From contig OZ241865.1 in NCBI GenBank assembly GCA_965203275.1, positions 1,344,001-1,408,000 of the forward strand: 64,000 nucleotides of DNA, written 5' to 3'. Both the position numbers and the translations under genes were made by a program. A model generated the notes under the pieces. The model was not told where the DNA came from. It worked only from the letters and a program-made list of their open reading frames with translations, and made no database searches. Of this stretch, positions 1,174 to 61,614 are shown piece by piece. Source of the DNA: Bdellovibrionales bacterium. Lineage in GTDB: Bacteria > Bdellovibrionota > Bdellovibrionia > Bdellovibrionales > JAUICD01. Every line of letters starts with the position of its first letter. Positions within the stretch are counted from its first letter, which is position 1.

Positions 1174-1314
1174 TTCACTAAAAGTAAACTGACCTCTGGT
1201 CACTTTCTGGTTGCCAGCCGAAGGCTACCGCCTTCTCAAAAGCTGGCAACCTAGAAAGCCTGTTCACTTTGAGTAGGGAGGATCCCTTCACTTTTTTACT
1301 TCATGTTAAGGAAA
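1174..1314 (+). repeat. Structured repeat, module A + tail (chimeric P1 arms)
   Basis: TTCACTAAAAGTAAAC-TGACCTCTGGTCA-CTTTCTGGTTGCCAGC-CGAAGGCTACCGCCTTC..GCTGGCAACCTAGAAA..GTTCACTTTGAGTAGGGAGGATC...TGTTAAGGAAA; same layout as other copies. Confidence 0.9.
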
Positions 1315-1340
1315 CAAAATGCTTTCAAAATTATATTAAA

Positions 1341-1415
1341 AGAGCAATGTCTCAAAAGTGGCCAGAGGCCAGACCACTTTTAGTGAAACAGAGGTCACTT
1401 TACTTTTAGTGGAAA
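1341..1415 (-). repeat. Partial module A plus a stacked ~26-nt A fragment that supplies the last codons and stop of the Rpn gene
   Basis: Reverse strand reads TTCCACTAAAAGTAAAGTGACCTCTG|TTTCACTAAAAGTGGTCTGGCCTCTGGCCACTTTTGAGACATTGCTCT. Confidence 0.85.
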
Positions 1416-2336
1416 CGACTGGCGAATTTTTTTGATTTCTGCTTCTGATAGGCCAGTGATTTCACAGATATCTTGTAATTTTGCATTTCTCTCAATTAGC
1501 TTAAGTGCAATCTCTTTTTGTTTCTTCTCAATACCTTCTTCACGACCCTTCTCAAGACCTTCTTCACGACCCTCGTCACGAACAAATTCTTCTCTGTCTA
1601 CTTGATCCCTCCTAGCTCTCTCTTTCACCATATCAAGCTCTTGTAATGTCTCATCTTTTGATAATATCCATAAATGCTCAGCTGCTTCTGCCATGATTCC
1701 TCCTTTATCTTTGAAATATAAATATTCCTTTTGGTCCATCTGACCCGACCTCTTTAAAAAATAACACCAATTCTCTTTTATGTCAAATAATTCTCCTAAT
1801 TGGGACTGAAATTTATCTAATTCTACTATCACAAAACTCATACCCCGCGACATCACTACTTCTGGATGCTCTGTCCGACGAATATTGCAAACATGGTAAT
1901 AGTCCTTTATTCCTTCAAATTCTTTTAAATTTACAGTTGTGAAAACCAATGAATACACTGGAAGTAACTTATCAATATTCTCACCTTTCCTAATTTGACC
2001 TGAATAGAGCCGAGATAGATACATCAGTAACCTATCCGTAAAATGCTTTTGAGCTGTCGTTTGGACTTCTACATTCGCTGTCTCTGTATTTTGAAGAATG
2101 CCATTAATCCTTCTCCTTAACAGCACTCGCAAATCTAAAACAAAAAATTTATACTCCTCCGGGAATTTATCCGATGGAAGTTCTGTATTTAATATATGAA
2201 TGTCTTCTATTACAGAACCCTCTGGCAATGGAAGAAAATTCTCCATTATCGAAATCAAAAGCTTTTTCTTCCTTGTAAAGAAGGCCTTGAAATTACGATC
2301 TTTTGTTAAACTTAAATTCTTGCTTGGTTTTTTCAT
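1395..2336 (-). CDS. Rpn family recombination-promoting nuclease / PD-(D/E)XK putative transposase, copy 1
   Basis: D.NFKAFF start, LDLRV...NVEVQ catalytic motif, R...Y.SRLY..Q, C-terminal EEGREEGLEKG repeats and IA..L...I.EITGLS tail. Confidence 0.85.
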   Translation of the reverse strand: MKKPSKNLSLTKDRNFKAFFTRKKKLLISIMENFLPLPEGSVIEDIHILNTELPSDKFPEEYKFFVLDLRVLLRRRINGILQNTETANVEVQTTAQKHFTDRLLMYLSRLYSGQIRKGENIDKLLPVYSLVFTTVNLKEFEGIKDYYHVCNIRRTEHPEVVMSRGMSFVIVELDKFQSQLGELFDIKENWCYFLKRSGQMDQKEYLYFKDKGGIMAEAAEHLWILSKDETLQELDMVKERARRDQVDREEFVRDEGREEGLEKGREEGIEKKQKEIALKLIERNAKLQDICEITGLSEAEIKKIRQSFPLKVK

Positions 2337-10955: not shown

Positions 10956-10967
10956 AAGCCTGTTGCT

Positions 10968-11057
10968 TTTTGTCAAAGGCGAAAGCCTTTGCGGTCATTG
11001 TCCAAAAGTGACCAGAGGTCAGTTTACTTTTAGTGAAATGGACCACTTTTAGTGAAA
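10968..11057 (-). repeat. Partial module A with a stacked 5' fragment
   Basis: Reverse: TTTCACTAAAAGTGGTCCA|TTTCACTAAAAGTAAAC-TGACCTCTGGTCA-CTTTTGGACAATGACC-GCAAAGGCTTTCGCCTTTG. Confidence 0.85.
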
Positions 11058-36385: not shown

Positions 36386-36418
36386 AAGTGGTCTGACCTC
36401 TGGTCACTTTTAGTGAAA
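36378..36418 (+). repeat. Collapsed module A (P1-P2 only); supplies the cusA stop codon
   Basis: TTCACTAAAAGTGGTCTGACCTCTGGTCACTTTTAGTGAAA. Confidence 0.8.
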
Positions 36419-36423
36419 CAAAC

Positions 36424-36815
36424 TCCCTAACCCCACCCACCGCCCTTCGATTCTGCTTTTCTATTTGTATGTTTTTTTATGAGTGGAATGCGATTGCAGG
36501 CTTCCGAAGTCCTCAATTGAGCTTGCTCCTTAAAAGCAAGCTCAATTTGCGGAAGATCTTCAGCCTGCCCCCGCTTCCCACTCATAATATTCTTCATTTT
36601 TTTGAGAGTTACGCAGAATCTAAAAAGAATAAAAAAATAAAAAAACGAAAATCTTTTTCCTTAACATGGTGTCAAGAGACGAGAGGATCCTCCCTACTAA
36701 AAGTAAACTGACCTCTGGTCACTTTGGGTAGCCAGCCCGACGGCTACCGCCGTCGATCAAAGGCTGGCTACCTCAGTCCGTTTACTTTTCGTTTTTTAAT
36801 ACGATGTTAAGGAAA
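36424..36815 (-). repeat. Composite element B + tail + A (A body flipped) with a second tail
   Basis: TCCCTAACCCCACCCACCGCCC...GATTCTGC..GCAGAATC module B, then reversed tail TTTCCTTAACATGG...GGATCCTCCCTAC, then A body and TGTTAAGGAAA. Confidence 0.88.
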
Positions 36816-36839
36816 CAAGATATTTATATTTATTTCACT

Positions 36840-36962
36840 CCCGGGATCCGGGATCAGGCAATCTGGCATCCCGGGATCTGATGCCGGGCTACCGGATGCC
36901 AGATCCCGGATCCCGGATCCCAGATCCCGGATCCCGGATCCCAGATCCCGGATCCCGGGATC
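36840..36962. repeat. Heptamer (GATCCCG/GATCCGG) arrays in opposite polarity
   Basis: CCGGGATCCGGGATC..ATCTGGCATCC ... GGATGCCAGATCCCGGATCCCGGATCCC. Confidence 0.9.
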
Positions 36963-37087
36963 AGTATCTGTCTAATAAAATAACTATTGTCTAATTCATT
37001 ATCACTCTGCATGTCTCATTATGTTACAAAAGATGATTTTCATACTTTAAATACTTAATAAATACACAGATGGACTGCTGTAAGATT

Positions 37088-37103
37088 TGGCATAGTTTTT
37101 GAT
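37088..37103 (+). promoter_or_regulatory. Possible sigma54-type promoter
   Basis: TGGCAT-N5-TTGAT (non-consensus -12) 60 nt upstream of ATG 37164. Confidence 0.3.
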
Positions 37104-37163
37104 GTATTTTAATTAAGGCATAAAAAATATACGCATTTTTCATTTAAGAAAGGGGTTTTAATA

Positions 37164-40153
37164 ATGAAGTTTATTCAACAGCTCAACGATCTAACTATCT
37201 GTAGATTGTTTACATGCTCTATCTGTTTATTTGTGATCGGTTGTTCCTTTATTGCTTGCGGAGAAGCTCCTATGCAAGAACATGGAGCTTTAGACCCTGA
37301 AGCCCAAAGGCGACTTGCTAACCCAGAAGAAAATCGGGAAATATTACGCAGAGAACTTGAAGAAATACAAAAGAGAATGCAAGAGGCTGCTCAGGAGGCT
37401 CAGGAAGCTCAAGAGGCTGAAAGCCAAGACTCGTCTACCCCCCCCCCCCCCCCCCCCCCTCCAAATCTTTAACCTCACAAGCTATTGAAACTATTGAGTT
37501 ATCTAGTAGTCAACCTGAAAAAAGTGGATGGTTTTCGTCATCTTGGAACTATCTTGTAGATAAAGGGTTTAGTGCAACACAAGCTGTAAAAGACTACGTC
37601 AATGACTTCACTACTGACGATGCAGAGAACAACACAATGAACCCTCGAGAATATCAAGAGTTATGGGAGAAGATAAAAAAGTGGGAATCAAGAACTTTTA
37701 AAGATCGAGAACTCATGAGAAAAAACAAAAGTATATACAACAAATTCATGAGTTTGCCTCCAGGTAACAAAGTGTTGATTGAAGATACAATATACGATTT
37801 AGATGAAATGCCAGATGATCTACGCACGGCTATACAAAAAATAGAATCTGAAGATGATACCTTAAAAGAAGAAATTGCTCAAGCGTTATATCCTTTCCTT
37901 TGGATTCAGTCTGTGGATGTAACTAATGTCAACAATGATTCAATATTACGTCCCATGCCATTACCTTTCACCCTATATCGGAGTATGCATGATGACAATT
38001 ATACTCCACAAGAAATTATAAATGCCATACAAGCCTTGATCACACTGGGAGCTGATGTAAACAAAAAAGAAAGGAATCGAATTAAGATGAAGCCTTTACA
38101 TTATGTAATAGATAATATGAGGGATGAGAGGTTAGCATTAGAAATAGCTAAAATATTGATTGATGCTGGAGCTGATGTTAATTATAGCGATAGACAGGAG
38201 TGGACAGCTCTGCACTGTGCTAGCCGGAGAGGATTTTTAGAAATAGTTAAGCTATTACTAGATCATGGAGCTGATATAGATACACAAGGAAGGGAGTGTA
38301 ATATCCTATGTCGCACAATAAGGATAGCAAGAGACCCAGACAAGAGAAAACCACAACATCAAGAGATTATAGAGTTATTGACTGCTGTTGAACAAGAACA
38401 AGAAAAAAAAGATGAAGGAAAAATTTTTCTTCGTCCCATGCTCACTCCAACCGAACAAGAAGAACAAGAACAAGAAGAAAGATGGAAGGCAAAAAAATGG
38501 AGAAGAGAGTATAACATTGATCAACGTGTCCAACGCTGGACTTCTATGACTCCTGAACAAAGAGCAACAAGTAAATTAACAGATTTTTCTCTTAGCTTTA
38601 CCACATCTCGTCGATGTAGAAGAGAATTCCCTGCAAGCAGACAATGCCTTAAAGTAGAGTTTTTGAGAGATGGTTATAAACAAACTTTTATTTATCCTTC
38701 ACCTATATTAACTGAAGATGAAAGAACTGCACTTCAAACAGTTGAACAAGAGCAAGAGGAATATAATGCACAAAAGGAAAGAGAAGCAGTAGAAAGAAGG
38801 GAACGAGAAGCAAGAGAAAGAATGGAACGAGAAGCGAGAGAAAGAAGGGAACGGGAAGCAAGAGAAAGAAGGGAACGAGAAGCAGCAGAAAGAAGGGAAC
38901 GAGAAGCAAGAGAGCGGAGGGCAAGAGCAGAGCAACCAAATCAAGGGCAACGAACAAGCACCCAGTCTGATCCAAGAAGTCAATGGGCTGCTGATAGAGT
39001 CCGTTTAACTCAAGTCAGAGCAGCTTTAGAAGCTCCTCATGTCAATGCTTATGCTATCACACATGTTAAGCTTTTCCCTATTGCTAAACCACGCTTAGAC
39101 CCCTACCCATTTACAAGAGACGAAGATATGGCACATCTGTCTTTGAAAAACAGAAATGACGGATTTACCTTAGAAGTATTTAACCCTGAGCAACCAGAGC
39201 AGAGCAAAGTTGTTCTAGCTCAAAAAGTACATGATATTGAAATGAGCATTAGGTGTCATAATCAACTCAATTGTAATGAAAATATTCTTCGTTATAGATC
39301 TAATGTTGATCAAGATAGCCAGTGGCAAACGTATCCTCTTTCTAACTTGATAGGATATGAGAATGGCAACAATGTTTATCAGATGAGAATAATCTCAGAT
39401 AAAGAGCATGGAGATACTCAAGTGAGATGGGGTACAGGTCGCCGTCGAGTGAATAGATATTATAGAGGTCACTTTCGTATAGCTATTACTAAGAGAAAAA
39501 GCAATGACATGATGGAATGGAGCTTGATCAATGATGTTCCCGTAGAACAATATCTTCGTTCAGTTGTTCCGGGTGAGATGCCATTGACAGATGATCAAAG
39601 TGCTTCAAGGACTGCCTTTGCTGCTTTAAAGGCTCAAGTGATAGCAGCCAGGTCATATCTTTTCAGTAAGATCAAAGAGAATAGACATGTCAAAGCAATG
39701 GGATGGGATGTGGATCCTACAACATGGTTTCAATCTTATCCAGGTTCTAGAGAAGTAAGAAGTGGCAGAGTAAGAAACAGAGAATTTTTAAGAAGCGATG
39801 AAGCAGTGGAAGCCACAGTGGGTGTGATCCTCACATATCGAGGACAGTTAGCTATGACAGAATATCATGCTTGCCGAAGAGATAGCACAAGAACAAGTAA
39901 CAGTCTACCTATATTTAGAGCAAAGAAGATTCCAAGTGGAGAGAGATGTGGTCGTTACAGAGGTGAAGGAGGTCATGGTCGTGGTTTATCTCAGAGAGGT
40001 GCTATGTGGCTAGCCCGTGTAGGATGGGACGATGAAGAATCACCTACAGAAAATGCCGCCAAGCCTGAAGATGTTACAGAGCCATGGAGTCATGTTGATA
40101 TTCTTCGCTACTTTTATCACGGAGTCAATGTCCAAAATCACCACGAGCTTTGA
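37164..40153 (+). CDS. Lipoprotein with ankyrin repeats, coiled coil and SpoIID/LytB lytic transglycosylase domain; frameshifted at C22 tract 37438-37459
   Basis: Lipobox FIAC in ORF 37164; the frame of ORF 37637 is open back to the poly-C; ankyrin motifs (LI..GADVN, TALHCA..G..EIVKLLLDHGAD); SpoIID motifs (IN.VP.EQYL.SVVP.EMP, ALKAQ.IAARSY, GHGRGLSQ.GA, IL.YFY.G). Confidence 0.82.
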
Positions 40154-40530
40154 TTCACTCAAAATAAATCATGCCTCTGGCATGTTTTCTGGCAGTTAGC
40201 CCGACGGCTACCGCCGTCGATCAAAGGCTAACTGCCTAGAAAATTCATTTATTTTGAGTAGGGAGGATCTCTTCGTCTCTTAACTACATGTTAAGGAAAA
40301 AGAGTTTCGTTTTTTTATTTTTTTTATTCTCTTTTAGATTCTGCGTAACCTCAAATAAAAAGTAATTTAGAGGGAGGATGGGGCAGTGTGGGCCTGGAGA
40401 TCTTCCGCAAATTGAGCTTGCTCTTTAAAAGCAAGCTCAATTGAGGACTTCGGAAGGCTCACACTGCCCCATCCTCAAGTAAAAACAAAATGGAAAGGCA
40501 GAATCGAAGGGCGGGGGGTGGGGTTAGGGA
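40154..40530 (+). repeat. Full composite element A + tail + B
   Basis: Starts immediately after the TGA of the upstream gene; all four A helices paired; B ends GGGCGGGGGGTGGGGTTAGGGA. Confidence 0.92.
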
Positions 40531-40587
40531 GTTCCTTTAGATCCCGGATCCAGGGACTAGCTTGTTAGAAAATAAAAAAATATTCTT

Positions 40588-41505
40588 TTAATGAGAAAGA
40601 CTTGATGCTCCTCCTAGCTGTATCGCAACAGAGGCTACAAAAGCAAGATGTGTTACACGATTTAAAAAGAAAGTGCCATCACGACCAATAATAAATAAAC
40701 TATCTTCTTTAACTCCTACATCTTTGCTGATCAAAGCTAAAACAATACTTCCCCAACCTCCCATAAATACAACTATAAGGCTTATAGCCCACCAAAATGG
40801 ACCTATAGGCAAAAAAGTGCTTACAAAATAACTAATAACAAAAACAATAGAACCTGCAATAAACCAACCTTCTAAAGTTCTACGATGGGTGATTTTAACC
40901 CATTTTTTTTTACATAAATGAGAGATTGTGAGGTGAATATGGTTGAATAGCTCAACTAATAAAATAAGATAAATAAGATAAAAAGCTCCATCAGATAAAA
41001 GTACAATCCAAAGAGTATGTAAAAATCCCCATCCTATAAGCAGACATGCCAATAAACTTAAGCAGGTTAATTGCAACATATTTTGAGGAGATCTGTTTTT
41101 AATAACAGCAATTAAAGGAAGCAAGCCTAAATATATCATAGGAAGCAAGTTGTATAAGAGTTTTCCTTTAAAAACAGCAACCCCAGCAAATAGCAAAATA
41201 AAGATATAAGTCAACCAAAGATAGCTCACTTGATGATATATACCTGTGATTTTAAAAAATTCTTTAGTGGCCAAAAGGGCAACACAGGTTAAAGTGATAA
41301 CAGCTAATAATTGGTAAAAACCAATCATAATTATAATGATAGGAGCTAAAATAAACCAGCTTTTGATACTCACCCATTGTACTCGACTTAGAATGCTTTT
41401 GTTACGAAAAGGAAATATCAAAATAGCTACAGCAATTAAAAATCCAAAAGTTAAACAAGTGATTGTTGGAATATCTGTGTGATGGAATAAATATATGCCG
41501 GCCAT
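40588..41505 (-). CDS. Phosphatidate cytidylyltransferase family membrane protein (divergent)
   Basis: Multi-TM; KEFF, RRTLEG, SKDVGVK.....G..G..LNR resembling CTP_transf_1 motifs. Confidence 0.65.
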   Translation of the reverse strand: MAGIYLFHHTDIPTITCLTFGFLIAVAILIFPFRNKSILSRVQWVSIKSWFILAPIIIIMIGFYQLLAVITLTCVALLATKEFFKITGIYHQVSYLWLTYIFILLFAGVAVFKGKLLYNLLPMIYLGLLPLIAVIKNRSPQNMLQLTCLSLLACLLIGWGFLHTLWIVLLSDGAFYLIYLILLVELFNHIHLTISHLCKKKWVKITHRRTLEGWFIAGSIVFVISYFVSTFLPIGPFWWAISLIVVFMGGWGSIVLALISKDVGVKEDSLFIIGRDGTFFLNRVTHLAFVASVAIQLGGASSLSH

Positions 41506-41518
41506 GTTGCTTCTTCTC

Positions 41519-41905
41519 TTATTCGCTATTAATAGGTCGTGTTAAGGTCAAGCACCTCAAAATATCATAAGCAATTTTTTGGCATAGACTGCGATATTCA
41601 GTGTTTCCTTCAATGTATCTACGTATTGAAATATAATCATCTAGAAAATTCTCATCTGTGTTCATTAACCTTTCAATGACTTCTTGGGTTGGAAAGTCGT
41701 GAATAGGGAGATTAGAACTCAACATTAACTCTACAAACAAAACATCACCTGTGTCAGGATCATAAGCCGTGCCTCCTATAATATCAACCTGTAGCTGATA
41801 GCAAACATTTTGTTGACACACAATGGTTTGAAAATCATCCGCATCTTGAGCTAATACATTGATACTGAAAATAATCATTATAAAATATAAAATTGATAGT
41901 TTCAT
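41519..41905 (-). CDS. Hypothetical secreted protein
   Basis: AAGGAG RBS, signal peptide ending VLA. Confidence 0.6.
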   Translation of the reverse strand: MKLSILYFIMIIFSINVLAQDADDFQTIVCQQNVCYQLQVDIIGGTAYDPDTGDVLFVELMLSSNLPIHDFPTQEVIERLMNTDENFLDDYISIRRYIEGNTEYRSLCQKIAYDILRCLTLTRPINSE

Positions 41906-41981
41906 AGTTTCTCCTTTCTATTAAAAGTATGATTCAAAATATTTGATTGGTCAAACAATTAAATTATGAGATAATATATTT

Positions 41982-42647
41982 ATGCAAGAAAAACCTACGT
42001 TGTATACATATTTTAGAAGTTCTTCAGCTTATCGAGTACGTATAGTACTTCATTACAAACAAATTAAGTTTATATCTCATGCTATTCATTTACTTAAGGG
42101 ACAACAGCACAGCAAAGAATATTTGCAAAAAAATACCATGGGACAGGTGCCTTTCTTTCAACATAATCAGGTAGGCCTTATTCAATCTATGAGTATCATA
42201 GAATACATCGATGAAGTGTTTGCTGGACCAAAGGTTTTTCCAAAAGATTTCAAGTCTTGTATTATTGTAAAACAAATATGTCAAATGATTAATTCAGGTA
42301 TTCAACCCTTACAAAATTTATCTGTAGGTCAGAGACTTACTGTTCAATTTCAAGCCTCTCAAGAAGACATCAAAAAATGGAATACTCATTGGATTGCAAA
42401 AGGTCTTACAGGAGTAGAAAGGTTTATTCAAACTTATGCTGGTCAATATACTTTTGGTGATGAGATCACTGTTGCAGATGCTTTTTTAATTCCGCAAGTT
42501 TATTCTGCTCAACGTTATAATGTAGATATGACTGGCTTTCCTTATATTAATCAAATTGTCAAGAATTGTCATTTATTAGAAGCTTTTCAAAAAGCCCATC
42601 CTGATCAACAAGATGACAGCCCTTCTCAGCATAAAAAACTTTCATAG
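41982..42647 (+). CDS. maiA: Maleylacetoacetate isomerase (GST zeta)
   Basis: LYTYFRSSSAYRVRI, IQPLQNL, AD.FL.PQV..A.R, AHPD.Q.D. Confidence 0.93.
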   Translation: MQEKPTLYTYFRSSSAYRVRIVLHYKQIKFISHAIHLLKGQQHSKEYLQKNTMGQVPFFQHNQVGLIQSMSIIEYIDEVFAGPKVFPKDFKSCIIVKQICQMINSGIQPLQNLSVGQRLTVQFQASQEDIKKWNTHWIAKGLTGVERFIQTYAGQYTFGDEITVADAFLIPQVYSAQRYNVDMTGFPYINQIVKNCHLLEAFQKAHPDQQDDSPSQHKKLS

Positions 42648-42733
42648 AAAATAGACACTGTAAAACATGATAAATAATACAACAAATAGGTCTTATTAAG
42701 TCTTTTCCCAAGCATCACTACTAGTGAAATTTA

Positions 42734-43267
42734 CTAGTGAAATTTTTGATCTTCAAAAAAATTCACATTAGCAAGCTTAAAAATATGTTGATTTTCATCA
42801 TATTTATAGATATTGATGCGGGCAGATAAATTCTTCTCATACCCAGGGACAAGAATTTCTAATTTATTATCTCCATCTATATCATGGAGAGCTAAGTTGC
42901 TGGACACTCCTTTAAAATTAATATAAGCATCCCTACCAAAAAAAAGTGGGATACGACTTAATAACAAAGGAGCAGACTGAACATCTGAAGTGTTGCCATA
43001 TATTTCTAAGAAAAATTCATTATTTGTTCTCACTTTAATAACTTTTGTTTTCTGCCCATTATAAAGCAAATTACCTGTAGCCGTTGAAAGTACCTCTCTT
43101 TGATGTGATGTAAATTTTGCATGAAGTTTTTCTCTGACATCATCGTTCAAGACACATACAGTACTCACACAAAAAAGTGTCAGAGCCACAGCATAAAGGG
43201 CAAAATTCAAACAATCTTTAAAAGTGATGTTTTTAATAAAAGTGATATTTTTAATATTTTTTATCAT
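42734..43267 (-). CDS. Hypothetical membrane-anchored protein with an FG-GAP-like motif
   Basis: N-terminal TM helix; NLAL.DIDGD..LEI.VP. Confidence 0.6.
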   Translation of the reverse strand: MIKNIKNITFIKNITFKDCLNFALYAVALTLFCVSTVCVLNDDVREKLHAKFTSHQREVLSTATGNLLYNGQKTKVIKVRTNNEFFLEIYGNTSDVQSAPLLLSRIPLFFGRDAYINFKGVSSNLALHDIDGDNKLEILVPGYEKNLSARINIYKYDENQHIFKLANVNFFEDQKFH

Positions 43268-43535
43268 TTTCTATTATTTCCCCATTTCCATTTATATCTC
43301 GAATATCTCAAATATCTCGAATATATTTATTTTTATTATAACACAATATCTCCTATAAACAATATCGGTTAAAATTAAAAAATTTATTATATAATAATTA
43401 TATTTAAAAAATAAAAAAGTGTCTCTAAATAAGACACTCCTCACCTGAGTTGTCTAAAATACTTGACACTAAATAATTGACACTTTTCGTAAACAAAAAA
43501 CATAAAAATAATATCAAAAAATAAACAGATAAAAG

Positions 43536-43563
43536 TAAAGTTTTTTGCAGTTTTTACCGAAAA
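43536..43563 (+). promoter_or_regulatory. Possible sigma28 (FliA)-type promoter
   Basis: TAAAGTTT-N12-ACCGAAAA upstream of the FQNC lipoprotein gene. Confidence 0.4.
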
Positions 43564-43632
43564 ATAATTAAGTATTGTATATGAAGATTTAGTTTCAGCT
43601 TTTATTTTATTTATATTTGGAGGTATTTATAT

Positions 43633-44823
43633 ATGAATAAACATGAAAAATATTTATATATTTTGGTTGGTAGTTTATTTGTTTTAATGATTGGATTTCA
43701 AAACTGTGATTCATCAACATCTTTATTAAATGCAGAAAATAAAGAACATCCTGCTATTCTTCAAGATACATCATTTAATGCTATAGAAGATGCATTAAGT
43801 ACATCTATTAAACCTATCCGAGCTACATTGGTATCAGACGATGCTCAAACTCCTAGAGATTATTTTTCTATTTATAGCAATATCAAACTATCTTTGACAG
43901 ACTTATTACCAGAATCTTCTCAAAATCAAAGCTTTACATGGAGTATTGAAAAAATATTTCCACAGGGTGTTGTTTTTCAACATACAGTGACTAATGAACA
44001 ATCAGAATATATATATACTTTCCCTCAAGTAGGTGTTTATGATGTTTCTGTCACATCACACCAAGAAGAGAATGCAAACAATGCTGAATCCATTAGAGGA
44101 CATAAAAAACTTGTCGTAGGCCTTTGCAATGAAAATCAAAATATTTTAGAGATCACTTTAAGTGAGGGAACACTTCAACCTAACACAAAATCTGCTTTCA
44201 CCTTGAGCTACTTTGACGAGAATGAAGCTGCTATCTCTAACGTGCTGTGGCAAGTGACACATCACAATAAGAACGTTGCTACTTCTAATAACAATGATCC
44301 AAGTAAATTGGTAACTCAATGGGGTAATATATCAGGAGAAACACTTGTAGAAATTTTTGCTCAATTTGAAGGGAATGATTGCATTTTTCATAGACAAAGA
44401 TGGGTCAATATAGATCAAAACATACGCCCTCATTTTAATTATGTGCGACCTGTTGATGATCACTCTGCCAATATAGCTCTACTTAATAATGATACTTATG
44501 TGTATGTCAGGAGCAGTGCAAACACATCTGTTTTGTTAGATATTCAAAATGCAGATAAGTGCTTATTTAATGGAAAGATTGTACCAGATTGCAATGGTTC
44601 TGCATGGGATTTAAGTCAGGAGAGTCCCAGCACAGAATGTCAGGAAAATGAATTTACAGTCACAGCTTACCGGAACGATAATCAATTAAAAGTTTCTGAT
44701 TCTTTTTATAGTTATTGTCCTGCCAATGATGACTTTTGTGCTTTTGGCCCTCAAAGATATAGACCTGATGAATATAGATGCCATCCTCTTGTGTCAGAAG
44801 TTACTAACTCTGACAGCATATAA
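43633..44823 (+). CDS. FQNC-lipobox lipoprotein with PKD/Ig-like segments
   Basis: GGAGG RBS; MIGFQNC; YTF..VGVYDVSV PKD-like motif. Confidence 0.7.
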   Translation: MNKHEKYLYILVGSLFVLMIGFQNCDSSTSLLNAENKEHPAILQDTSFNAIEDALSTSIKPIRATLVSDDAQTPRDYFSIYSNIKLSLTDLLPESSQNQSFTWSIEKIFPQGVVFQHTVTNEQSEYIYTFPQVGVYDVSVTSHQEENANNAESIRGHKKLVVGLCNENQNILEITLSEGTLQPNTKSAFTLSYFDENEAAISNVLWQVTHHNKNVATSNNNDPSKLVTQWGNISGETLVEIFAQFEGNDCIFHRQRWVNIDQNIRPHFNYVRPVDDHSANIALLNNDTYVYVRSSANTSVLLDIQNADKCLFNGKIVPDCNGSAWDLSQESPSTECQENEFTVTAYRNDNQLKVSDSFYSYCPANDDFCAFGPQRYRPDEYRCHPLVSEVTNSDSI

Positions 44824-44829
44824 TAATTT

Positions 44830-45636: not shown

Positions 45637-45675
45637 AATTTTATTAGACTTAGCAAATATTTTGATCGCTGTCCA

Positions 45676-46671: not shown

Positions 46672-46679
46672 GATGACAC

Positions 46680-47000: not shown

Positions 47001-47134
47001 TTATTTTGTGTTTATTTTGCGTTTATTTTGTGTTTTTAAATATGAATTCTTTTGTTCATTAACAAAATTCAAAAAACATAATATAAATTATTTATACAAA
47101 CCAATAGCATTAGAGTCAATAGTCATTTGTTTTG

Positions 47135-47514
47135 TTTCTCTAAAAGTGGTCTGACCTCTGTCTCACTAAAAGTAAACCAACCTCTGTTTCACTCAAAGTG
47201 AACTGGCCTCTGTTTCACTAAAAGTGGTCTGACCTCTGGTCACTTTCTGGTTGCCAGCCGAAGGCTATCGTTCACTCAAAGTGAACTGGCCTCTGGCCAC
47301 TTTTGGACAATGACCGCAAAGGCTTTCGCCTTTGACAAAATGGTCATTGTCTCAAAAGCCTGTTCACTTTGAGTAAGGAGGATCTCTTCGTCTCTTGACA
47401 CGATATTAAGGAAACAAGAGTTTATTTCACGTCGATAAAATGATCATCGCCTAGAAAGCCTGACCACTTTTAGTAGGGAGGATCTCCTCATTTTTTAACA
47501 CCATGTTAAGGAAA
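47135..47514 (+). repeat. Stack of module A fragments: three 26-nt heads, a half copy, a full A + tail and a right-half A + tail
   Basis: Units 47135-47160, 47161-47186, 47187-47212 each end CCTCTG; 47213-47270 ends in the P4 loop; full copy 47271-47414; right half 47432-47514. Confidence 0.92.
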
Positions 47515-47527
47515 CAAGATTTCTTTC

Positions 47528-47677
47528 TGATGCCGGCTTGCCGGACTGCCGGATTCCAGATGCCGGATTCCGGATTGACATGATGTTAGGGAAATAAGAT
47601 GTTCACTCCCGGGATCTGGGATCCGGCAATCTGGCATACCGGGAACTGATGCCGGATCCCGGGTTGCCGGATCCCAG
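47528..47677. repeat. Degenerate heptamer arrays with an internal tail-like motif
   Basis: GATGCCG/GATTCCG/GATCCCG units; TGTTAGGGAAA; TTCACTCCCGGGATC similar to 36834. Confidence 0.8.
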
Positions 47678-47751: not shown

Positions 47752-48125
47752 TTTCACTAAAAGTGGTCTAGCCTCTGGCTACTTTCTGGCGATGACCACG
47801 ATGGCTTTTGCCATCGATAAAATGGTCATCGCCTAGAAAGCCTGACCACTTTTAGTAGAAAGGATCTCTTCGTTTTTTAACACCATGTTAAGGAAAAAGT
47901 TCTTTTTTTTTGTTTTTTTATTTTTTTTAGATTCTGCGTAACCATCAAACAAAAAATAATTAGGGAGAGGATGGGGCAGTGGGAGACTGAAGATCTTCCG
48001 CAAATTGAGCTTGCTCCTTAAAAGCAAGCTCAATTGAGGACTTCGGAAGGCTCACACTGCCCTATCCTCAAATAAAAATAAAATGGAAAAAAGCAGAATC
48101 GAAGGGCGGTGGGTGGGGTTAGGGA
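47752..48125 (+). repeat. Full composite element A + tail + B
   Basis: Same order as 40154-40530; ends GGGCGGTGGGTGGGGTTAGGGA. Confidence 0.92.
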
Positions 48126-48262: not shown

Positions 48263-48278
48263 GACTTTAAGGAGTTGG

Positions 48279-48419
48279 TTCACTAAAAGTAAACTAGCCT
48301 CTGGCTACTTTTGGACATTGCTCTGACAGCTATCGCTGTCCAAAAAGAGCAATGTCTCAAAAGTCCGTTTACTTTTAGTAGAAAGGATATCCTCATTTTT
48401 TAACACGATGTTAAGGAAA
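48279..48419 (+). repeat. Module A + tail located between the RBS and start codon of the giant pilin-like gene
   Basis: TAAGGAG at 48268-48274, element, then ATG 48423. Confidence 0.88.
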
Positions 48420-48422
48420 AAA

Positions 48423-52663: not shown

Positions 52664-52963
52664 TGCACTCAAAATAAATCATGCATCTGTTTCCCTAAAA
52701 TTGAACTAGCCGTCATTTTCACTCAAAATGCATCATGCCTCTGGCATGTTTTTGGGCAATGACCGCAATGGCTTTCGCCATTGGCAAAATGGTCATTGCC
52801 TCAAAAATCTATGCATTTTGAGTAGAGGAGGATATCTTCGTTTTTTGACTACATGTTAAGGAAAATATCCTTTTAATACCAGTTAGCCCGACGGCTACCG
52901 CCGTCGACCAAAGGCTAACCGCCTCAAAAGCTTGTTCATTTTGAGTAGAGGAGGATCTCCTCG
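52664..52963 (+). repeat. Two stacked A heads, a full A + tail and a right-half A
   Basis: ..CATGCATCTG|TTTCCCTAAAATTGAACTAGCCGTCAT|TTTCACTCAAAATGCAT..; full copy 52717-52864; half copy 52880-52963. Confidence 0.88.
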
Positions 52964-52997
52964 TCACCAGCAAATCTTATAATTGAAAAAAGACAAT

Positions 52998-53966
52998 TTA
53001 TTTTTTCAGCTTGAGAATGTCATTTTTAGACAAACCTGTCATTGTAGAGATCAATGAAATATTAAGATTTTCTTTTAACATATTTAGTGCTATTTTTTCC
53101 ATTCCTTTCTCCATCCCTTCCTCACGACCCTTCTCAATACCCTTCTTAAAACCCTTCTCCATCCCTTCTTCACGACCCTTCTCAAGACCTTCTTCACGAC
53201 CCTCGTCACGAACAAATTCTTCTCTGTCTACTTGATCCCTCCTAGCTCTCTCTTTCACCATATCAAGCTCTTGTAATGTCTCATCTTTTGATAATACCCA
53301 TAAATGCTCAGCTGCCTCTGCCATGATGCCTCCTTTATCTTTGAAATACAAATATTCCTTTTGGTCCATCTGACCCGACCTCTTTAAAAAATAACACCAA
53401 TTCTCTTTTATGTCAATTAATTCTCCTAATTGGGACTGAAATTTATCTAATTCTACTATCACAAAACTCATACCCCGTGACATCACTACTTCTGGATGCC
53501 CTATCCGACGAATATTGCAAACATGGTAATAGTCCTTTATTCCTTCAAATTCTTTTAAATTTACAGTTGTGAAAACCAATGAATACACGGGAAGTAACTT
53601 ATCAACATTCTCCCCTTTCCTAATTTGACCTGAATAGAGCCGAGATAAATACATCAGTAACCTATCCGTAAAATGCTTTTGAGCTGTCGTTTGAACTTCT
53701 ACATTCGCAGTCTCTGTATTTTGAAGAACGCCATTAATCCTTCTTCTTAACTGTACTCGCAAATCTAAAACAAAAAATTTATACTCCTCTGGGAATTTAT
53801 CCGATGGAAGTTCTGTATTTAATATATGGATGTCTTCTATTACAGAACCCTCTGGCAATGGAAGAAAATTCTCCATTATTGAAATCAAAAGCTTTTTCTT
53901 CCTTGTAAAGAATGCCTTAAAATTACGATCCTGTGTTAAACTTAAATTCTTGCTTGGTTTTTTCAT
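52998..53966 (-). CDS. Rpn family recombination-promoting nuclease / PD-(D/E)XK putative transposase, copy 2
   Basis: Near-identical to 1395-2336 up to the EEGLEKGREEG repeats; different C-terminal tail. Confidence 0.85.
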   Translation of the reverse strand: MKKPSKNLSLTQDRNFKAFFTRKKKLLISIMENFLPLPEGSVIEDIHILNTELPSDKFPEEYKFFVLDLRVQLRRRINGVLQNTETANVEVQTTAQKHFTDRLLMYLSRLYSGQIRKGENVDKLLPVYSLVFTTVNLKEFEGIKDYYHVCNIRRIGHPEVVMSRGMSFVIVELDKFQSQLGELIDIKENWCYFLKRSGQMDQKEYLYFKDKGGIMAEAAEHLWVLSKDETLQELDMVKERARRDQVDREEFVRDEGREEGLEKGREEGMEKGFKKGIEKGREEGMEKGMEKIALNMLKENLNISLISTMTGLSKNDILKLKK

Positions 53967-54358
53967 CTTGTACACCTCATTCTTGTTATCTTAAGTTTAA
54001 TAGTAAAAAATCACTTAAGTCAAATATACTTTGTTTGTCATAACATTTGACTGACTTATAACTATTCTAAGAATAATATGTATTATTCTGTGATCTTTTC
54101 TACAAAGATCATTCCTCTGGGAATCCAGATCCCGGGATCCCAGCTCCCAGATAAACTCCATACTAAAAAAACAAGGCAAATTTTGACACCATGTTCAGAA
54201 AAAAGCATTTTTTAAAATTATTTTAAGGAATATTTCCACGATATGGTGTAAAAGGCAATGAGGTTTTTTCTACTCAAAATACATGGTGCATCTTAAAACA
54301 CATAGTGCATCTTATAAATATCAAAATATATAGCACATACATAAACTAAGGAATACAA

Positions 54359-59613: not shown

Positions 59614-59820
59614 TTCACTAAAAGTGGTCTGACCTCTGGTCACTTTCTGGCAATGACCACGATGGCTTTCGCCATCGATAAAATGGTCATTGCCTAGAAA
59701 GCCTGACCACTTTTAGTAGGGAGGATATCCTCATTTCTTAACACGATGTTAAGGAAAAAGATTTCCTTCTGATGCCGGTTGCCAAATCCCGGATCCCGGA
59801 TAAACACCATATTAAGGAAA
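59614..59820 (+). repeat. Module A + tail, heptamers and a second tail fragment
   Basis: Full A 59614-59757; GATGCCGG/ATCCCGG; CCATATTAAGGAAA. Confidence 0.9.
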
Positions 59821-59876
59821 AAGTTCCTTTATTGCAAGCCACTTGCTCCTTAAAAACATTTTAGAAGCATATCTTG

Positions 59877-60022
59877 TTTCCTTAACATGGTGTAAGAAGC
59901 AAGAAGATTCGCCCTACTCAAAATGCATAGATTTTTGAGGCAATGACTATTTTGTCAACGGCGTAAGCCGTTGCGGTCATTGCCCAAAAACATGCCAGAG
60001 GCATGATGCATTTTGAGTGAAA
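59877..60022 (-). repeat. Module A + tail, reverse orientation
   Basis: Reverse: TTTCACTCAAAATGCAT-CATGCCTCTGGCATG-TTTTTGGGCAATGACC-GCAACGGCTTACGCCGTTG...CCATGTTAAGGAAA. Confidence 0.9.
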
Positions 60023-60024: not shown

Positions 60025-60255
60025 TTAAGGAAAAAGAGTTTCATTGAGATTTCTTAGAGAGCCAAGACTAATATAGTAAAATTTCCTACGATCTTTTGCT
60101 GTAGGTTTAGCAGATCCTTCAGCTAAGTTAAGTACAATACTTGAGACAGCCCTTCGAAATTGACTTCTATGAGGCTCTTTCAGATGTAATTTTTTAGAAT
60201 TACGATAAAATTGAGTAGCTAATTGATAAGTTTTGAATTTTTGTTTTTGTTTCAC
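60025..60255 (-). pseudogene. Four-helix-bundle protein (TIGR02436 / 23S rRNA IVP-like, Avd-related fold), truncated by repeats
   Basis: F.TYQLA..FY...Q..RA.SSI.LNLAEG..K.T.KD...F..I.LGSLR; start codon and last residues come from the flanking repeats; last helix missing. Confidence 0.8.
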
Positions 60256-60537
60256 TCAAAATAAATCATGCCTCTGGCATGTTTTCTGGCAGTTAGCCCA
60301 ACGGCTTATCGCCGTTGATCAAAGGCTAACTGCCTAGAAAATCCATTTATTTTGAGTAGGGAGGATCCTTTTTTTTTCTTAATACCATGTTAAGGAAAAA
60401 GTTCTTTTTAAACCCGCCAGGGCTTGGGAGGAAATTTTTTAGATGCAAAAATTCATTACAATCAATACTCTGGAACCTGATCCCGGATCCCTGATCCCGG
60501 ATCCCGGATCCCAGATCCCGGTTCCCGGATCCCGGAT
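60250..60537 (+). repeat. Module A + tail + ~80-nt extension + heptamer array (direct repeat 1 around tmk)
   Basis: Extension AAACCCGCCAGGGCTTGGGAGG...CTCTGGAACCTGATCCC shared with the 61275 copy. Confidence 0.9.
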
Positions 60538-61274: not shown

Positions 61275-61614
61275 TCTCACTCAAAATAAATCATGCCTCT
61301 GGCATGTTTTCTGGCAGTTAGCCCGACGACTACCGCCGTCGTAAAAGGCTGGCTACCTCAAAAGTCCGTTTACTTTTAGTAGGGGAGGATCCTTTTTTTT
61401 TCTTAATACCATGTTAAGGAAAAAGTTCTTTTTAAACCCGCCAGGGCTTGGGAGGAAATTTTTTAGATGCAAAAATTCATTACAATCAATACTCTGGAAC
61501 CTGATCCCAGATCCCGGATCCCGGGATCCCGGTTCCCGGATCCCAGGATCCCGGATCCCGGTTCCCGGATCCCAGGATCCCGGATCCCGGATCCCGGATC
61601 CCGGGATCCCGGAT
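61275..61614 (+). repeat. Chimeric module A + tail + extension + long heptamer array (direct repeat 2 around tmk)
   Basis: Left arms like the 60250 copy, right arms like the 36696 copy; GATCCCG array 61503-61614. Confidence 0.9.

What the first reader, a model, noticed from the sequence alone, without database searches (positions are those of the whole stretch)
40154..40299. Multicopy four-helix non-coding module (A) with pervasive compensatory changes
Seen: complete or near-complete copies at 1174, 36696, 40154, 47271, 47752, 48279, 52717, 59614, 59877(-), 60250 and 61275, plus fragments. All share one layout: TTCAC-P1-P2(loop TCT)-P3(single T bulge)-P4-P3'-P1'-GTAG. Stem sequences differ but stay paired. 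P1: CTAAAAGTAAAC, CTAAAAGTGGTC, CTCAAAGTGAAC, CTCAAAATAAAT or CTCAAAATGCAT, each with its own complement. P2: TGACC/GGTCA, TGGCC/GGCCA, TAGCC/GGCTA, CATGCC/GGCATG. P3: GGTTGCCAGC, GACAATGACC, GGCGATGACC, GACATTGCTCT, GGCAGTTAGCC, GGTAGCCAGCC. P4: GAAGGC, CAAAGGC, CGACGGC, CGATGGC, GACAGC, CAATGGC, CAACGGC. Helix lengths, bulge and junctions are nearly invariant. On the minus strand most P4 loops read GNNA (GAAA, GTAA, GGTA, GATA) and the bulge is an A. Inference: structure rather than sequence is conserved, as expected for a mobile structured RNA or ssDNA element recognised by a protein. I do not recognise it as a described family.
Basis: partly seen in the sequence, partly recalled or inferred. 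Interest (0 to 1): 0.92.

Follow-up and report, generated by a model that had tools for sequence, protein, structure and literature searches.

The report
Hyper-abundant self-nesting hairpin DNA repeat
This is one copy of a roughly 165-base DNA repeat that folds into a three-armed hairpin, fills about 6% of an uncultured Bdellovibrio-like genome and often sits inside older copies of itself; it looks like a selfish DNA element of a familiar general kind, not an RNA gene, though what copies it is unknown.

Summary
The genome holds 741-762 full and about 530 partial copies, about 153 kb or 6% of 2.57 Mb.

The P1/P2/P3/P4 layout is real. Both DNA strands fold equally well (-46.3 and -47.1 kcal/mol, z about -11). 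On 134 copies from three genomes, 93.3% of cells pair against 81.8% in shuffles, and 39 of 53 pairs show double changes.

The evidence favours a DNA-level selfish repeat over an RNA:
- The core is Watson-Crick on both strands, with almost no wobble pairs.
- It shows no orientation bias relative to genes.
- Copies are nested, truncated, tandem and chimeric.
- Paralogous loci show filled and empty sites without target duplication.
- No Rfam family matches.

It resembles REP/REPIN/BIME elements, but no RAYT-type transposase accompanies it. An Rpn-family nuclease co-occurs with it in part; this is a lead only.

The scan found the same family earlier in two other windows of this genome, and I reach the same general verdict. 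Interest is moderate: a new variant of a known kind.

The parts
40154..40261 (+). Core of the copy in question, from TTCAC to GTAG. P1 is 40157-40169 with 40247-40259. P2 is 40170-40175 with 40179-40184 (loop TCT). P3 is 40185-40201 with 40226-40243 (bulged T at 40237). P4 is 40202-40208 with 40213-40219 (loop TACC). There is an A-rich internal loop at 40220-40225.
   Evidence: Sequence. ssDNA folds of both strands, z -11.2 and -11.0. nhmmer hit 40154-40302 scoring 145 bits. The core starts directly after the TGA stop of ORF 37637-40153.
40262..40310 (+). Conserved 3' tail: GGAGGATCTCTTC, the small hairpin CTTAAC..GTTAAG, and the invariant motif ATGTTAAGGAAA at 40288-40299. The 3' end of the unit is approximate.
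   Evidence: Column counts, tail logo and classes. The motif has 1247 genome sites at <=1 mismatch against about 20 expected. The end of the unit is taken from filled/empty sites.
1174..1318 (+). Full copy whose P1 arms come from two different subtypes (a chimera).
36696..36819 (+). Near-full copy with internal deletions.
47133..47270 (+). Array of 26-nt 5' stubs (P1 5' arm plus half of P2), followed by a 5' fragment (47214-47270) of an outer copy broken in its P4 loop.
   Evidence: (family D15)
47271..47418 (+). Full copy nested inside the outer copy whose halves are 47214-47270 and 47430-47518.
47430..47518 (+). 3' fragment (profile positions 60-148) of the outer copy.
47753..47899 (+). Full copy.
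48279..48422 (+). Full copy. A paralogous locus elsewhere in the genome lacks the core but keeps a solo tail.
52718..52964 (+). Full copy (52718-52866) followed by an internal fragment (52880-52964).
59614..59761 (+). Full copy.
59873..60021 (-). Full copy of the form with terminal inverted repeats: an inverted tail CTTTTTCCTTAACAT abuts its TTCAC end.
60251..60401 (+). Full copy. Twelve paralogous loci carry a 29-nt segment with a ribosome-binding site and ATG in its place.
61277..61425 (+). Full copy, chimeric: its 5' half is like the 40154 copy and its 3' half is like the 36696 copy.
10963..11037 (-). 5' fragment (profile positions 1-75).
1395..2336 (-). Rpn-family PD-(D/E)XK nuclease gene, a candidate trans-acting factor (lead only). 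An element copy lies convergently just downstream.
   Evidence: Pfam PF12784 E 2e-25. NCBIfam TIGR01784 E 1.4e-30. Neighbourhood.
52998..53975 (-). Second Rpn-family nuclease gene in the window, with element copies downstream.

Best explanation
The finding is one member of a very large family of non-coding, non-autonomous selfish DNA repeats. The unit is about 165 bp.

Anatomy. A T(Y)TG-TTTCAC leader is followed by a 105-nt core that can fold back on either DNA strand into a three-way junction: a P1 stem, a P2 side hairpin with the invariant apex CCTCTGG, and a long P3/P4 hairpin with a bulged base. Then come GTAG and a tail carrying the invariant ATGTTAAGGAAA.

How it most likely works.
- Shown: the element is copied as DNA into intergenic sites without target-site duplication.
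- Shown: it lands preferentially in the hairpin apices (P2 and P4 loops) and just after the tail of older copies. This gives Russian-doll nests, tandem arrays and truncated halves.
- Inferred: the fold-back (ssDNA hairpin or cruciform) together with the two invariant motifs is what the copying machinery needs. Stems may therefore drift only through compensating changes.
- Shown as pattern, mechanism inferred: frequent exchange between copies reshuffles whole nested hairpin modules. Because each module is contiguous, its two arms stay matched.
- Unidentified: the trans-acting enzyme. It is not a RAYT/IS200-type, RT, IS110 or TnpB protein in this genome.
For: Abundance and placement.
- 1363 nhmmer hits and 762 full copies, 375 plus and 387 minus. 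After removing strand shadows: 741 full, 287 3' fragments, 180 5' fragments and 60 internal, in 630 clusters.
- 97% of element bases lie outside called ORFs although 76% of the genome is coding.
- Independent read sets show about 100-fold (X1, X3) and about 45-fold (X7) excess depth over repeat bins.

DNA level rather than RNA level.
- 40 core pairs: 28,777 Watson-Crick, 339 G.T and 464 A.C cells.
- Both strands fold alike.
- Orientation against genes is 176 same and 209 opposite. Copies occur in tandem (18.7%), divergent (26.2%) and convergent (28.5%) spacers.

Structure under constraint.
- 93.3% of cells paired against 81.8% in shuffles (0 of 500 reach it). 972 double-change cells against 336. 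Slid controls give 33-48%.
- RNAalifold independently recovers P1-P4, with 32 of 40 pairs showing double changes.
- The same architecture appears with new stems in G001 and G004.

Copying and nesting.
- Cluster order is 5' fragment, full copy, 3' fragment in nearly all mixed clusters (a few read F5 or 3F). One locus holds three outer copies whose P1 arms match in mirrored order.
- 107 of 741 full copies sit right after a P2-loop stub, and 69 of 741 right after another tail.
- Of 119 solitary copies tested, 18 have a paralogous locus where both flanks lie within 60 nt of each other. One is a clean insertion without duplication.
- The 59 copies with terminal inverted repeats show no target duplication: 4 of 59 against 5 of 59 in the shuffled control.

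Mosaic make-up. There are few stem alleles but many combinations, for example 44 of 72 P1 x P4 and 35 of 40 P2 x P4. Chimeric copies exist.

Precedent. Compensatory changes in REPIN hairpins are in print (PMC3116915, passage read).
Against: - No enzyme is identified, so 'mobile' rests on patterns only.
- No empty site was seen in other strains' contigs. Short-read contigs break at every copy.
- Many 'empty' paralogs are replacements, or carry a stub or a solo tail, rather than clean empty sites. Deletion or gene conversion could explain part of the polymorphism.
- Each 3' tail class goes with one fixed resumption point in the outer copy. This fits amplification of composite units, or site-specific recombination, at least as well as independent insertions.
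- The tail helices carry many G.T pairs on the plus strand only, a hint of strand-specific use that this reading does not explain.
- No RNA data could be had.
- Conservation of the family across three species could also mean that the host uses it.
Confidence: 0.6

Rival explanations
1. Driven by an Rpn nuclease. The multi-copy Rpn-family PD-(D/E)XK nucleases cut extruded hairpin apices, and the breaks are healed by primer-template switching onto other copies. This would spread, nest and reshuffle the element without a classical transposase.
For: - Within the family of five held genomes, PF12784 is found in the three that carry the element (G000 14, G001 5, G004 1) and in neither of the two that lack it.
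- In G000, 13 of 14 nuclease genes lie within 300 bp of an element hit. The figure is 30% (543 of 1822) for all ORFs, and 3 of 14 for IS256-like and IS4-like copies.
- The proteins match TIGR01784 'Rpn family recombination-promoting nuclease'.
- RpnA is described as a non-specific endonuclease that raises RecA-independent recombination, with primer-template switching proposed (PMC5350276, abstract read).
- Junctions here lack target duplications and lose about 10-15 nt at hairpin apices.
Against: - In G001 none of the 3 intact nuclease genes has a copy within 2 kb. The 2 adjacent cases are truncated genes abutted by a copy.
- The single G004 gene lies on a contig without any copy.
- PF12784 also occurs in four genomes of the order where the element was not found, one of them with 13 copies.
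- Rpn proteins are currently read as toxic antiphage nucleases (PMC10400941, listing and abstract start only).
- Only five related genomes were available, and paralogues are not independent.
Confidence: 0.12
2. A MITE of a DDE transposon. The invariant tail ATGTTAAGGAAA is a transposase-binding end, and copies with an inverted tail at the 5' end are the true MITE form, mobilised by a DDE transposase now absent, unrecognised, or the ~550-aa IS4-like enzyme.
For: - 59 of 741 full copies have 13-24-bp terminal inverted repeats made of the tail.
- The tail motif is invariant at 1247 sites and also occurs alone.
- The ~550-aa DDE_Tnp_1 gene is present in G000, G001 and G004 and absent from G003.
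Against: - No target-site duplication: one clean site, and 4 of 59 against 5 of 59 in the control.
- Most copies have no 5' inverted tail.
- No longer element bounded by inverted tails carries a transposase.
- The ends of the IS4-like element (CCTGAGTTTGACAGTTG) and of the IS256-like element (GAGCATGTCC) are unrelated to the tail.
- G002 also has DDE_Tnp_1 hits but no element.
Confidence: 0.12
3. No dedicated enzyme. Long palindromes stall replication and are cut by host hairpin nucleases. Slippage, template switching and gene conversion alone then generate arrays, nests, chimeras and arm-to-arm correction ('neutral palindrome correction').
For: - Tandem arrays of period 147 or 157, with internal hairpin-sized deletions.
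- Apex-centred losses at junctions.
- Strand-symmetric pairing.
- No transposase candidate passes the tests.
Against: - It does not explain arrival at unrelated sites, such as the clean insertion between unrelated flanks.
- It does not explain the 223 solitary full copies spread over the chromosome.
- It does not explain sequence invariance of CCTCTGG and ATGTTAAGGAAA across three species while the stems change.
Confidence: 0.1
4. A REP/REPIN element mobilised by a RAYT (Y1 HUH transposase) that has since been lost or is too divergent to detect.
For: - A GTAG tetranucleotide follows P1' and precedes a small palindrome. GTAG-tagged REPs are the class linked to RAYTs (PMC3733652, abstract and the section 'REPs and tyrosine transposases').
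- Hairpin with a bulged base, no target duplication, extragenic location, compensatory changes.
- The cited section states that REPtrons can be lost by deletion.
Against: - PF01797 is not found in G000 (0 matches, 6 candidates scored) or in G004.
- The one Y1 gene of G001 is an ordinary IS200-like unit with its own end hairpins and no element copy beside it.
- No replication-strand orientation bias: 127 plus and 154 minus, 233 plus and 227 minus by replichore. The GC skew is weak, so this test is weak.
- The unit is about four times the size of a REP.
Confidence: 0.04
5. A functional structured RNA module (sRNA, UTR element or terminator) that has been multiplied.
For: - Conserved multi-helix fold with covariation.
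- Tail helices with G.U pairs on the plus strand only.
- The 40154 copy begins right after a stop codon.
Against: - No Rfam family. The best sub-threshold hit is a plant miRNA hairpin at 21 bits against a gathering score of 60.
- The core lacks wobble tolerance and is strand-symmetric.
- No orientation bias to genes, and presence in divergent spacers.
- Nesting and truncation.
- No run of T after the main hairpin. The only terminator-like hit is the P2 hairpin itself, on both strands.
Confidence: 0.02

Closest known systems
REPINs / REP sequences with RAYT (TnpA-REP) transposases (Pseudomonas, E. coli)
   Same: Hundreds of extragenic copies. A hairpin-forming unit whose stems keep pairing through compensatory changes (PMC3116915, passage read). 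A GTAG tag next to a palindrome (PMC3733652). Clusters and ordered arrays. No target duplication. Long persistence within a lineage.
   Different: No RAYT gene in G000 or G004, and the Y1 gene of G001 is unlinked. The unit is a 105-nt three-way junction plus tail, not two 20-40-bp REPs. It makes up 6% of the genome. Copies nest systematically in their own hairpin loops.
BIMEs (bacterial interspersed mosaic elements) of enterobacteria
   Same: Intergenic mosaics built from a few palindromic modules and linker motifs in varied combinations and arrays. (Comparison recalled from my own knowledge; no BIME paper was read here.)
   Different: The modules here are nested helices of one large fold, and other modules (heptamer arrays, solo tails) are interleaved. 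The host factors known to bind BIMEs were not tested.
Hairpin-type bacterial MITEs (Correia/NEMIS, ERIC, RUP, Coxiella and Rickettsia palindromic elements)
   Same: 100-170-bp non-coding intergenic repeats able to fold as long hairpins. Some copies have terminal inverted repeats (59 of 741).
   Different: No target-site duplication, no parent IS with matching ends, and most copies lack terminal inverted repeats. (The properties of the named MITEs are recalled, apart from review listings seen.)
IS200/IS605 ends and their transposase-less derivatives (PATEs)
   Same: Imperfect hairpins with an extrahelical base, and insertion without duplication. (The IS608 model is recalled.)
   Different: No TnpA or TnpB in G000 (the one TNB-domain hit lies in a 1365-aa Cas12-like ORF). 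No replichore orientation bias. The leader bases travel with the insert at the clean site.
Rpn (YhgA-like) recombination-promoting nucleases
   Same: The genome holds 14 paralogues of this family (TIGR01784/PF12784). The published activity of RpnA (non-specific cutting, RecA-independent joining; PMC5350276 abstract) would fit the junctions seen here.
   Different: No repeat family has been tied to Rpn proteins in the papers I saw. The association here holds in G000 only (against 91).

Membership tests
REP/REPIN-RAYT system | A cognate RAYT (Y1 HUH transposase) gene in the genome, flanked by the repeats (a REPtron) | tested here: not met
   PF01797 gives 0 matches in G000 and 0 in G004. The single Y1 gene of G001 has its own IS200-type end hairpins, and the nearest element fragment is about 1.8 kb away.
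REP/REPIN-RAYT system | An unpaired GTAG tag at one end of a short palindrome | tested here: inconclusive
   G-T-A-G follows P1' (755, 699, 746 and 489 of 762 copies at the four positions) and precedes the small GGAGGAT..TCC palindrome. That palindrome pairs in only 79% of cells and is a minor part of the unit.
REP/REPIN-RAYT system | An extragenic hairpin-forming unit with compensatory changes | tested here: met
   97% of element bases lie outside ORFs. 93.3% of cells pair, and 39 of 53 pairs show double changes.
MITE derived from a DDE insertion sequence | Target-site duplication flanking each copy | tested here: not met
   A clean filled/empty pair shows none. Among the 59 copies with terminal inverted repeats, 4 have a direct repeat of 4 nt or more at the ends, against 5 in the shuffled control.
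MITE derived from a DDE insertion sequence | Terminal inverted repeats shared with an autonomous parent IS | tested here: not met
   Only 59 of 741 copies have tail-derived inverted repeats. None of the roughly 50 intervals between inverted tails shared a transposase gene. The ends of the IS256-like and IS4-like elements differ from the tail.
IS200/IS605-derived elements (PATE) | A TnpA (Y1) partner and orientation coupled to the direction of replication | tested here: not met
   No Y1 in G000. Orientation by replichore is 127 plus and 154 minus, 233 plus and 227 minus. This is a weak test because the GC skew is shallow.
Rfam structured RNA family | A match to a curated covariance model | tested here: not met
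   Only a tRNA reaches gathering score in the window. At E<=1 there are two miRNA-hairpin hits far below their gathering scores.
Functional RNA in general | Strand-specific structure (G.U tolerated on one strand) and a fixed orientation relative to transcription | tested here: not met
   In the core, G.T 339 against A.C 464 of 30,480 cells. Orientation is 176 same and 209 opposite. Expression itself could not be tested, because no RNA run was listed.
Integron attC sites | Association with an integron integrase and gene cassettes | tested here: not met
   Only two Phage_integrase-domain genes in G000 and none in G004. Copies are scattered genome-wide in 630 clusters, not in cassette arrays.
Rpn-nuclease-associated repeat (hypothetical class) | Consistent co-occurrence and adjacency of the repeat and an Rpn-family gene across genomes | tested here: inconclusive
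   Co-occurrence is 3 of 3 carriers and 0 of 2 non-carriers within the family, but 4 other genomes have the gene without the repeat. Adjacency is 13 of 14 in G000, 0 of 3 intact genes in G001 and 0 of 1 in G004.

The most novel reading that the evidence does not exclude
The repeat family is propagated and reshuffled by the genome's own multi-copy Rpn-family PD-(D/E)XK nucleases. These would cut extruded hairpin apices, and the breaks would be repaired by primer-template switching onto other copies. This would be a transposase-free, nuclease-driven way for structured DNA repeats to multiply. It would also give the widespread but enigmatic 'putative transposase' Rpn/PDDEXK_2 family a natural DNA partner.
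Probability: 0.12. Interest if true: 0.8.

Novelty: new variant of a known kind. Interest (0 to 1): 0.45.

Why it matters
Selfish hairpin repeats (REPs, REPINs, BIMEs, MITEs) are common, but a cognate enzyme is known for only a few of them.

This family is extreme in three ways:
- Load: about 6% of a 2.6-Mb genome.
- Structural complexity: a three-way junction with about 40 covarying pairs.
- Self-targeting: about one copy in seven sits in the P2 loop of another.

It also lacks the usual RAYT partner and leaves no target duplication.

It offers a large natural data set, with about 1,300 copies in one genome and more in relatives, for working out how fold-back DNA is recognised, copied and recombined. 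It would also test whether Rpn-type nucleases play a part.

For genome annotation, a ready covariance model prevents these copies being miscalled as sRNAs, terminators or small ORFs.

Tried and rejected
- My first pattern (TTCACCTMAAAR) was mistyped and gave only chance-level matches. It was corrected.
- Expression: no RNA holder was listed for the locus, so expression could not be examined.
- Strain polymorphism: contigs of four runs were laid on window 35500-49000. They break at every repeat, and no contig bridges an empty site. One X3 contig runs from the upstream gene into the first 25 nt of the 40154 copy. This says nothing either way about presence or absence elsewhere.
- Orthologous empty sites in the sister genome G001: gene order is rearranged and DNA identity is only 66-76%, so no orthologous spacer could be aligned.
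All multi-match stretches lie in one chromosome labelled 'MAG: Bdellovibrionales bacterium'. The singletons in unrelated taxa are at about the chance level that I estimate for so loose a pattern. The scan is therefore incomplete.
- Suspicion that the G004 copies sit on mis-binned contigs: the three small contigs that carry them have GC content and translated identity to G000 (40-53%) like a large G004 contig (49%). There is no sign of mis-binning, but it is not excluded.
- Candidate enzymes rejected by the pattern of presence across genomes or by absence: Transposase_mut/IS256 (absent from G004), IS110, TnpB, tyrosine recombinases, reverse transcriptase.
- A first all-copy flank BLAST timed out and was rerun on 119 solitary copies.
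- One script returned nothing because of a faulty regular expression and was corrected.
- An earlier-findings look-up by sequence gave nothing.
Full report

Yes. The stretch 40154-40299 reads TTCAC, then a 12-13-nt arm, a 6-bp hairpin with loop TCT, a 17-nt arm, a 7-bp hairpin with loop TACC, an A-rich loop, the complementary 17-nt arm interrupted by one T, three unpaired bases, the complementary first arm, and GTAG.

Folded as single-stranded DNA, the plus strand gives exactly this structure at -46.3 kcal/mol (shuffles -14.4 +/- 2.9, z -11.2). The minus strand gives its mirror image at -47.1 kcal/mol (z -11.0).

**2. Scale**

The window lies in a single-contig genome of 2,567,810 bp with 35.1% G+C.
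- The profile gives 1363 hits at E<=1e-3. Of these, 762 are full length, 375 on the plus and 387 on the minus strand. Together they cover about 153 kb, or 6% of the genome.
- After removing opposite-strand shadows there are 741 full copies, 287 3' fragments, 180 5' fragments and 60 internal pieces. They fall in 630 clusters, 223 of which are solitary full copies.
- Contigs of independent public runs show 45- to 125-fold excess depth over the repeat bins. The copy number is therefore not an assembly artefact.
- 97% of element bases lie outside called ORFs, although 76% of the genome is coding.
- Copies are old and diverse. Mean pairwise difference is 41.6 of 148 positions, and 683 of 762 sequences are distinct. 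There is some recent copying: 198 copies have a neighbour within two differences.

**3. Covariation**

Over all 762 full copies, the 40 core pairs hold 28,777 Watson-Crick cells, 339 G.T, 464 A.C and 900 other or gapped.

I ran a formal count on 134 distinct copies.
- They were 89 from this genome and 45 from two relatives. The 89 were picked farthest-first from the 249 full copies that lie in fetched loci.
- Nine copies from this genome and seven from relatives were dropped because their length fell outside 143-153 nt. Four reverse-strand shadow rows were left in.
- 93.3% of cells pair, against 81.8 +/- 0.3% in shuffles (0 of 500 reach the observed value).
- 39 of 53 pairs show changes on both sides, and there are 972 such cells against 336.
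- Versions slid by 1-3 columns give 33-48% pairing.

RNAalifold, given no structure, returns P1-P4, with 32 of 40 pairs showing double changes.

The signal needs one qualification. Each helix exists in a small set of perfectly complementary alleles. Those with five or more copies number 9 for P1, 5 for P2, 5 for P3a, 11 for P3b and 6 for P4. These alleles are combined almost freely, for example 44 of 72 possible P1 x P4 pairs and 35 of 40 P2 x P4 pairs. So the element is a mosaic of reshuffled nested hairpin modules. The number of independent compensatory events is tens, not hundreds.

**4. RNA or DNA?**

Four results point to DNA.
- The core tolerates almost no wobble, and the little there is lies evenly on both strands. 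Functional RNAs normally show G.U pairs on the transcribed strand.
- Both strands fold equally well.
- In co-directional spacers, 176 full copies point with the genes and 209 against them. The element also occupies divergent (26.2%), convergent (28.5%) and tandem (18.7%) spacers alike.
- Copies are routinely cut in two by other copies.

No Rfam family matches at gathering score. At E<=1 only two microRNA-hairpin hits appear, far below threshold.

The two small tail hairpins behave differently. They show many G.T pairs on the plus strand only, and little double change. I cannot explain that.

No RNA run was available.

**5. Evidence that it is copied**

Order within clusters is almost always 5' fragment, then full copy, then 3' fragment (a few clusters read F5 or 3F). 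At C1:2079690-2080420, three 5' stubs precede a full copy and their three 3' remainders follow it in mirrored order. Each remainder's P1 arm is complementary to its own stub.
- Of the 741 full copies, 107 start right after a P2-loop stub (..CCTCTG), 69 right after another copy's tail, and 59-63 right after an inverted tail.
- 139 P2-loop stubs are followed by a new 5' end.
- Tandem arrays of period 147 or 157 occur, some units carrying hairpin-sized deletions.

I then compared paralogous loci within the genome. Of 119 solitary copies tested, 18 have a second locus where both flanks lie within 60 nt of each other.
- At C1:1827546 the insert TG-TTTCAC...GTTCTTCTATC sits between flanks that are contiguous in the paralogue, with no duplication.
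- At 756664 and 757049 two units of a 231-bp tandem repeat carry the element where up to 28 other places in that repeat family have TTG-TTTCCCTCAAAA. That sequence resembles the element's own 5' end.
- The window copy at 48279 has a paralogue that keeps only a tail.
- The copy at 60251 replaces a 29-nt segment that is present in 12 paralogues.

So gains or losses are real, but many are replacements rather than simple insertions. The outer copy typically lacks 10-15 nt at the apex where the inner one sits. Each tail class goes with one fixed resumption point in the outer copy. This suggests either recurrent site-specific joining or amplification of composite units.

**6. Who does it?**

No known class of enzyme fits.
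- In this genome I found no Y1/RAYT, no reverse transcriptase and no IS110-type enzyme. There is no TnpB either: the single TNB-domain hit lies in a 1365-aa Cas12-like ORF.
- The two real insertion sequences have unrelated ends: an IS256-like element in 8 copies, and an IS4-like element whose 552-aa DDE gene gives 3 hits and whose DNA recurs, whole or in part, at about 6 places.
- Intervals bounded by inverted tails share no transposase.
- Copies that do have tail-derived terminal inverted repeats (59 of 741, 13-24 bp) show no target duplication: 4 of 59 against 5 of 59 in a shuffled control.
- The sister genome G001 has one Y1 gene, but it is an ordinary IS200-like unit with its own end hairpins and no element copy beside it.
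- Orientation shows no replichore bias. This is a weak test, because the GC skew is shallow.

One lead remains. The genome has 14 Rpn-family PD-(D/E)XK nuclease genes, matching PF12784 and TIGR01784.
- For: 13 of the 14 lie within 300 bp of an element hit. The figure is 30% for all ORFs and 3 of 14 for the IS copies.
- For: among the five genomes of the family, the nuclease is found in exactly the three that carry the element.
- For: the published activity of RpnA would suit the junctions. It is a non-specific endonuclease that promotes RecA-independent joining, with primer-template switching proposed (PMC5350276, abstract).
- Against: in G001 the three intact genes have no copy within 2 kb, and the two adjacent cases are truncated genes abutted by a copy. 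In G004 the gene and the copies lie on different contigs.
- Against: four other genomes of the order have the gene without the element.

I rate this reading at about one in eight.

**7. Distribution**

BLAST and a covariance model built here (R1: 148 positions, 40 pairs) find the family in three genomes:
- this genome;
- G004, of another genus, with 13 hits on three small contigs.

It was not found in G002, G003 or 36 other genomes of the order. The G004 contigs look like the rest of that genome in G+C content and in distance to G000.

Many stem alleles are shared between species. The two invariant motifs, CCTCTGG and ATGTTA(A/G)GGAAA, are kept in all three.

Its multi-copy matches all lie in a chromosome labelled 'MAG: Bdellovibrionales bacterium'.

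There was no match in the plasmid or phage collections.

**8. Comparison with what is known**

The closest system is REP/REPIN with RAYT. The shared features are extragenic location, hairpin formation, compensatory changes (PMC3116915, passage read), a GTAG tag (PMC3733652, abstract and one section read) and ordered clusters. The defining partner, a RAYT flanked by the repeats, was tested and not met. I therefore do not file the element as a REPIN, although it probably works in a similar way.

It fails the MITE tests for target duplication and for a parent IS. It resembles BIMEs in its mosaic make-up (comparison recalled).

Three searches of the held library returned no paper on repeats of this lineage among the papers listed. 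Papers outside that library were not searched.

**9. Earlier notes of this scan**

Two earlier follow-ups, on other windows of the same genome, described the same family. They concluded that it is a selfish, self-nesting mosaic hairpin repeat closest to REP/REPIN. My independent tests agree. They add:
- the cross-species covariation count;
- the strand-symmetry and orientation tests;
- the filled and empty paralogous sites;
- the test for target duplication at copies with terminal inverted repeats;
- the negative RAYT test in the sister genome;
- the partial association with the Rpn nuclease.

**10. Verdict**

It is a new variant of a known kind. Interest is moderate, at 0.45. The interest would rise sharply if a nuclease-driven, transposase-free copying mechanism were shown.

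Noticed in passing
window 2480-2515, 36856-36981, 47543-47575, 59769-59801, 60461-60565, 61494-61613: Arrays of the heptamer CCCGGAT, which reads ATCCGGG on the minus strand (a G3N4 pattern prone to forming quadruplexes). They usually follow an element tail and are followed by a second ATGTTAAGGAAA tail. They are similar in type to the GGGNATC repeats reported in Xanthomonas and Nostoc (PMC4692102, abstract read).
   Followed up: partly
window 24928-27499: An IS4-like element (25232-27200) with a 552-aa DDE transposase and ends CCTGAGTTTGACAGTTG. It lies between two identical 300-bp direct repeats (24928-25227 and 27200-27499), far longer than a normal target duplication.
   Followed up: partly
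window 1395-2336(-) and 52998-53975(-); 12 more loci in the genome: Fourteen Rpn-family (TIGR01784/PF12784) nuclease paralogues with 24-nt periodic repeats near the 3' end (window 1501-1597 and 53083-53203). 13 of the 14 lie within 300 bp of an element copy.
   Followed up: yes
window 47133-47213: A tandem array, period 26 nt, of element 5' stubs (leader, P1 5' arm and half of P2). It looks as if successive copies had each landed in the P2 loop of the one before.
   Followed up: partly
window 40310-40496 and 47903-48089: An 87%-identical T-rich module follows two element copies of different subtype. It is another member of the intergenic mosaic (family D14).
   Followed up: no
G000 C1:756229-757395, 1739929-1740837, 614613-615561 and others (outside the window): A separate tandem repeat family with a unit of about 231 bp. 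Two of its units carry element insertions, which gives filled and empty comparisons.
   Followed up: partly
G000 C1:~242285-245800 (outside the window): A 1365-aa ORF with a Cas12f1-like TNB domain next to a Cas1-like ORF, probably a type V CRISPR-Cas locus. G001 has a 1343-aa counterpart.
   Followed up: no
G000 C1:214264-215663 and 7 other sites (outside the window): An IS256-like element of 1.4 kb in eight copies, seven of them 99.9-100% identical. It has a 411-aa transposase, ends GAGCATGTCC and an 8-bp target duplication.
   Followed up: partly
window 22345-23253 and 8335-9022: In-frame tandem repeats of 33 nt inside ORF 22298-23716 and of 45 nt inside ORF 8380-9447 (families D1 and D2).
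   Followed up: no
L132 and L133 (G001 C1:2777500-2782000 and 2745000-2749400): In the sister genome, two truncated Rpn-family genes end exactly where an element copy begins. The element appears to have broken the gene.
   Followed up: partly
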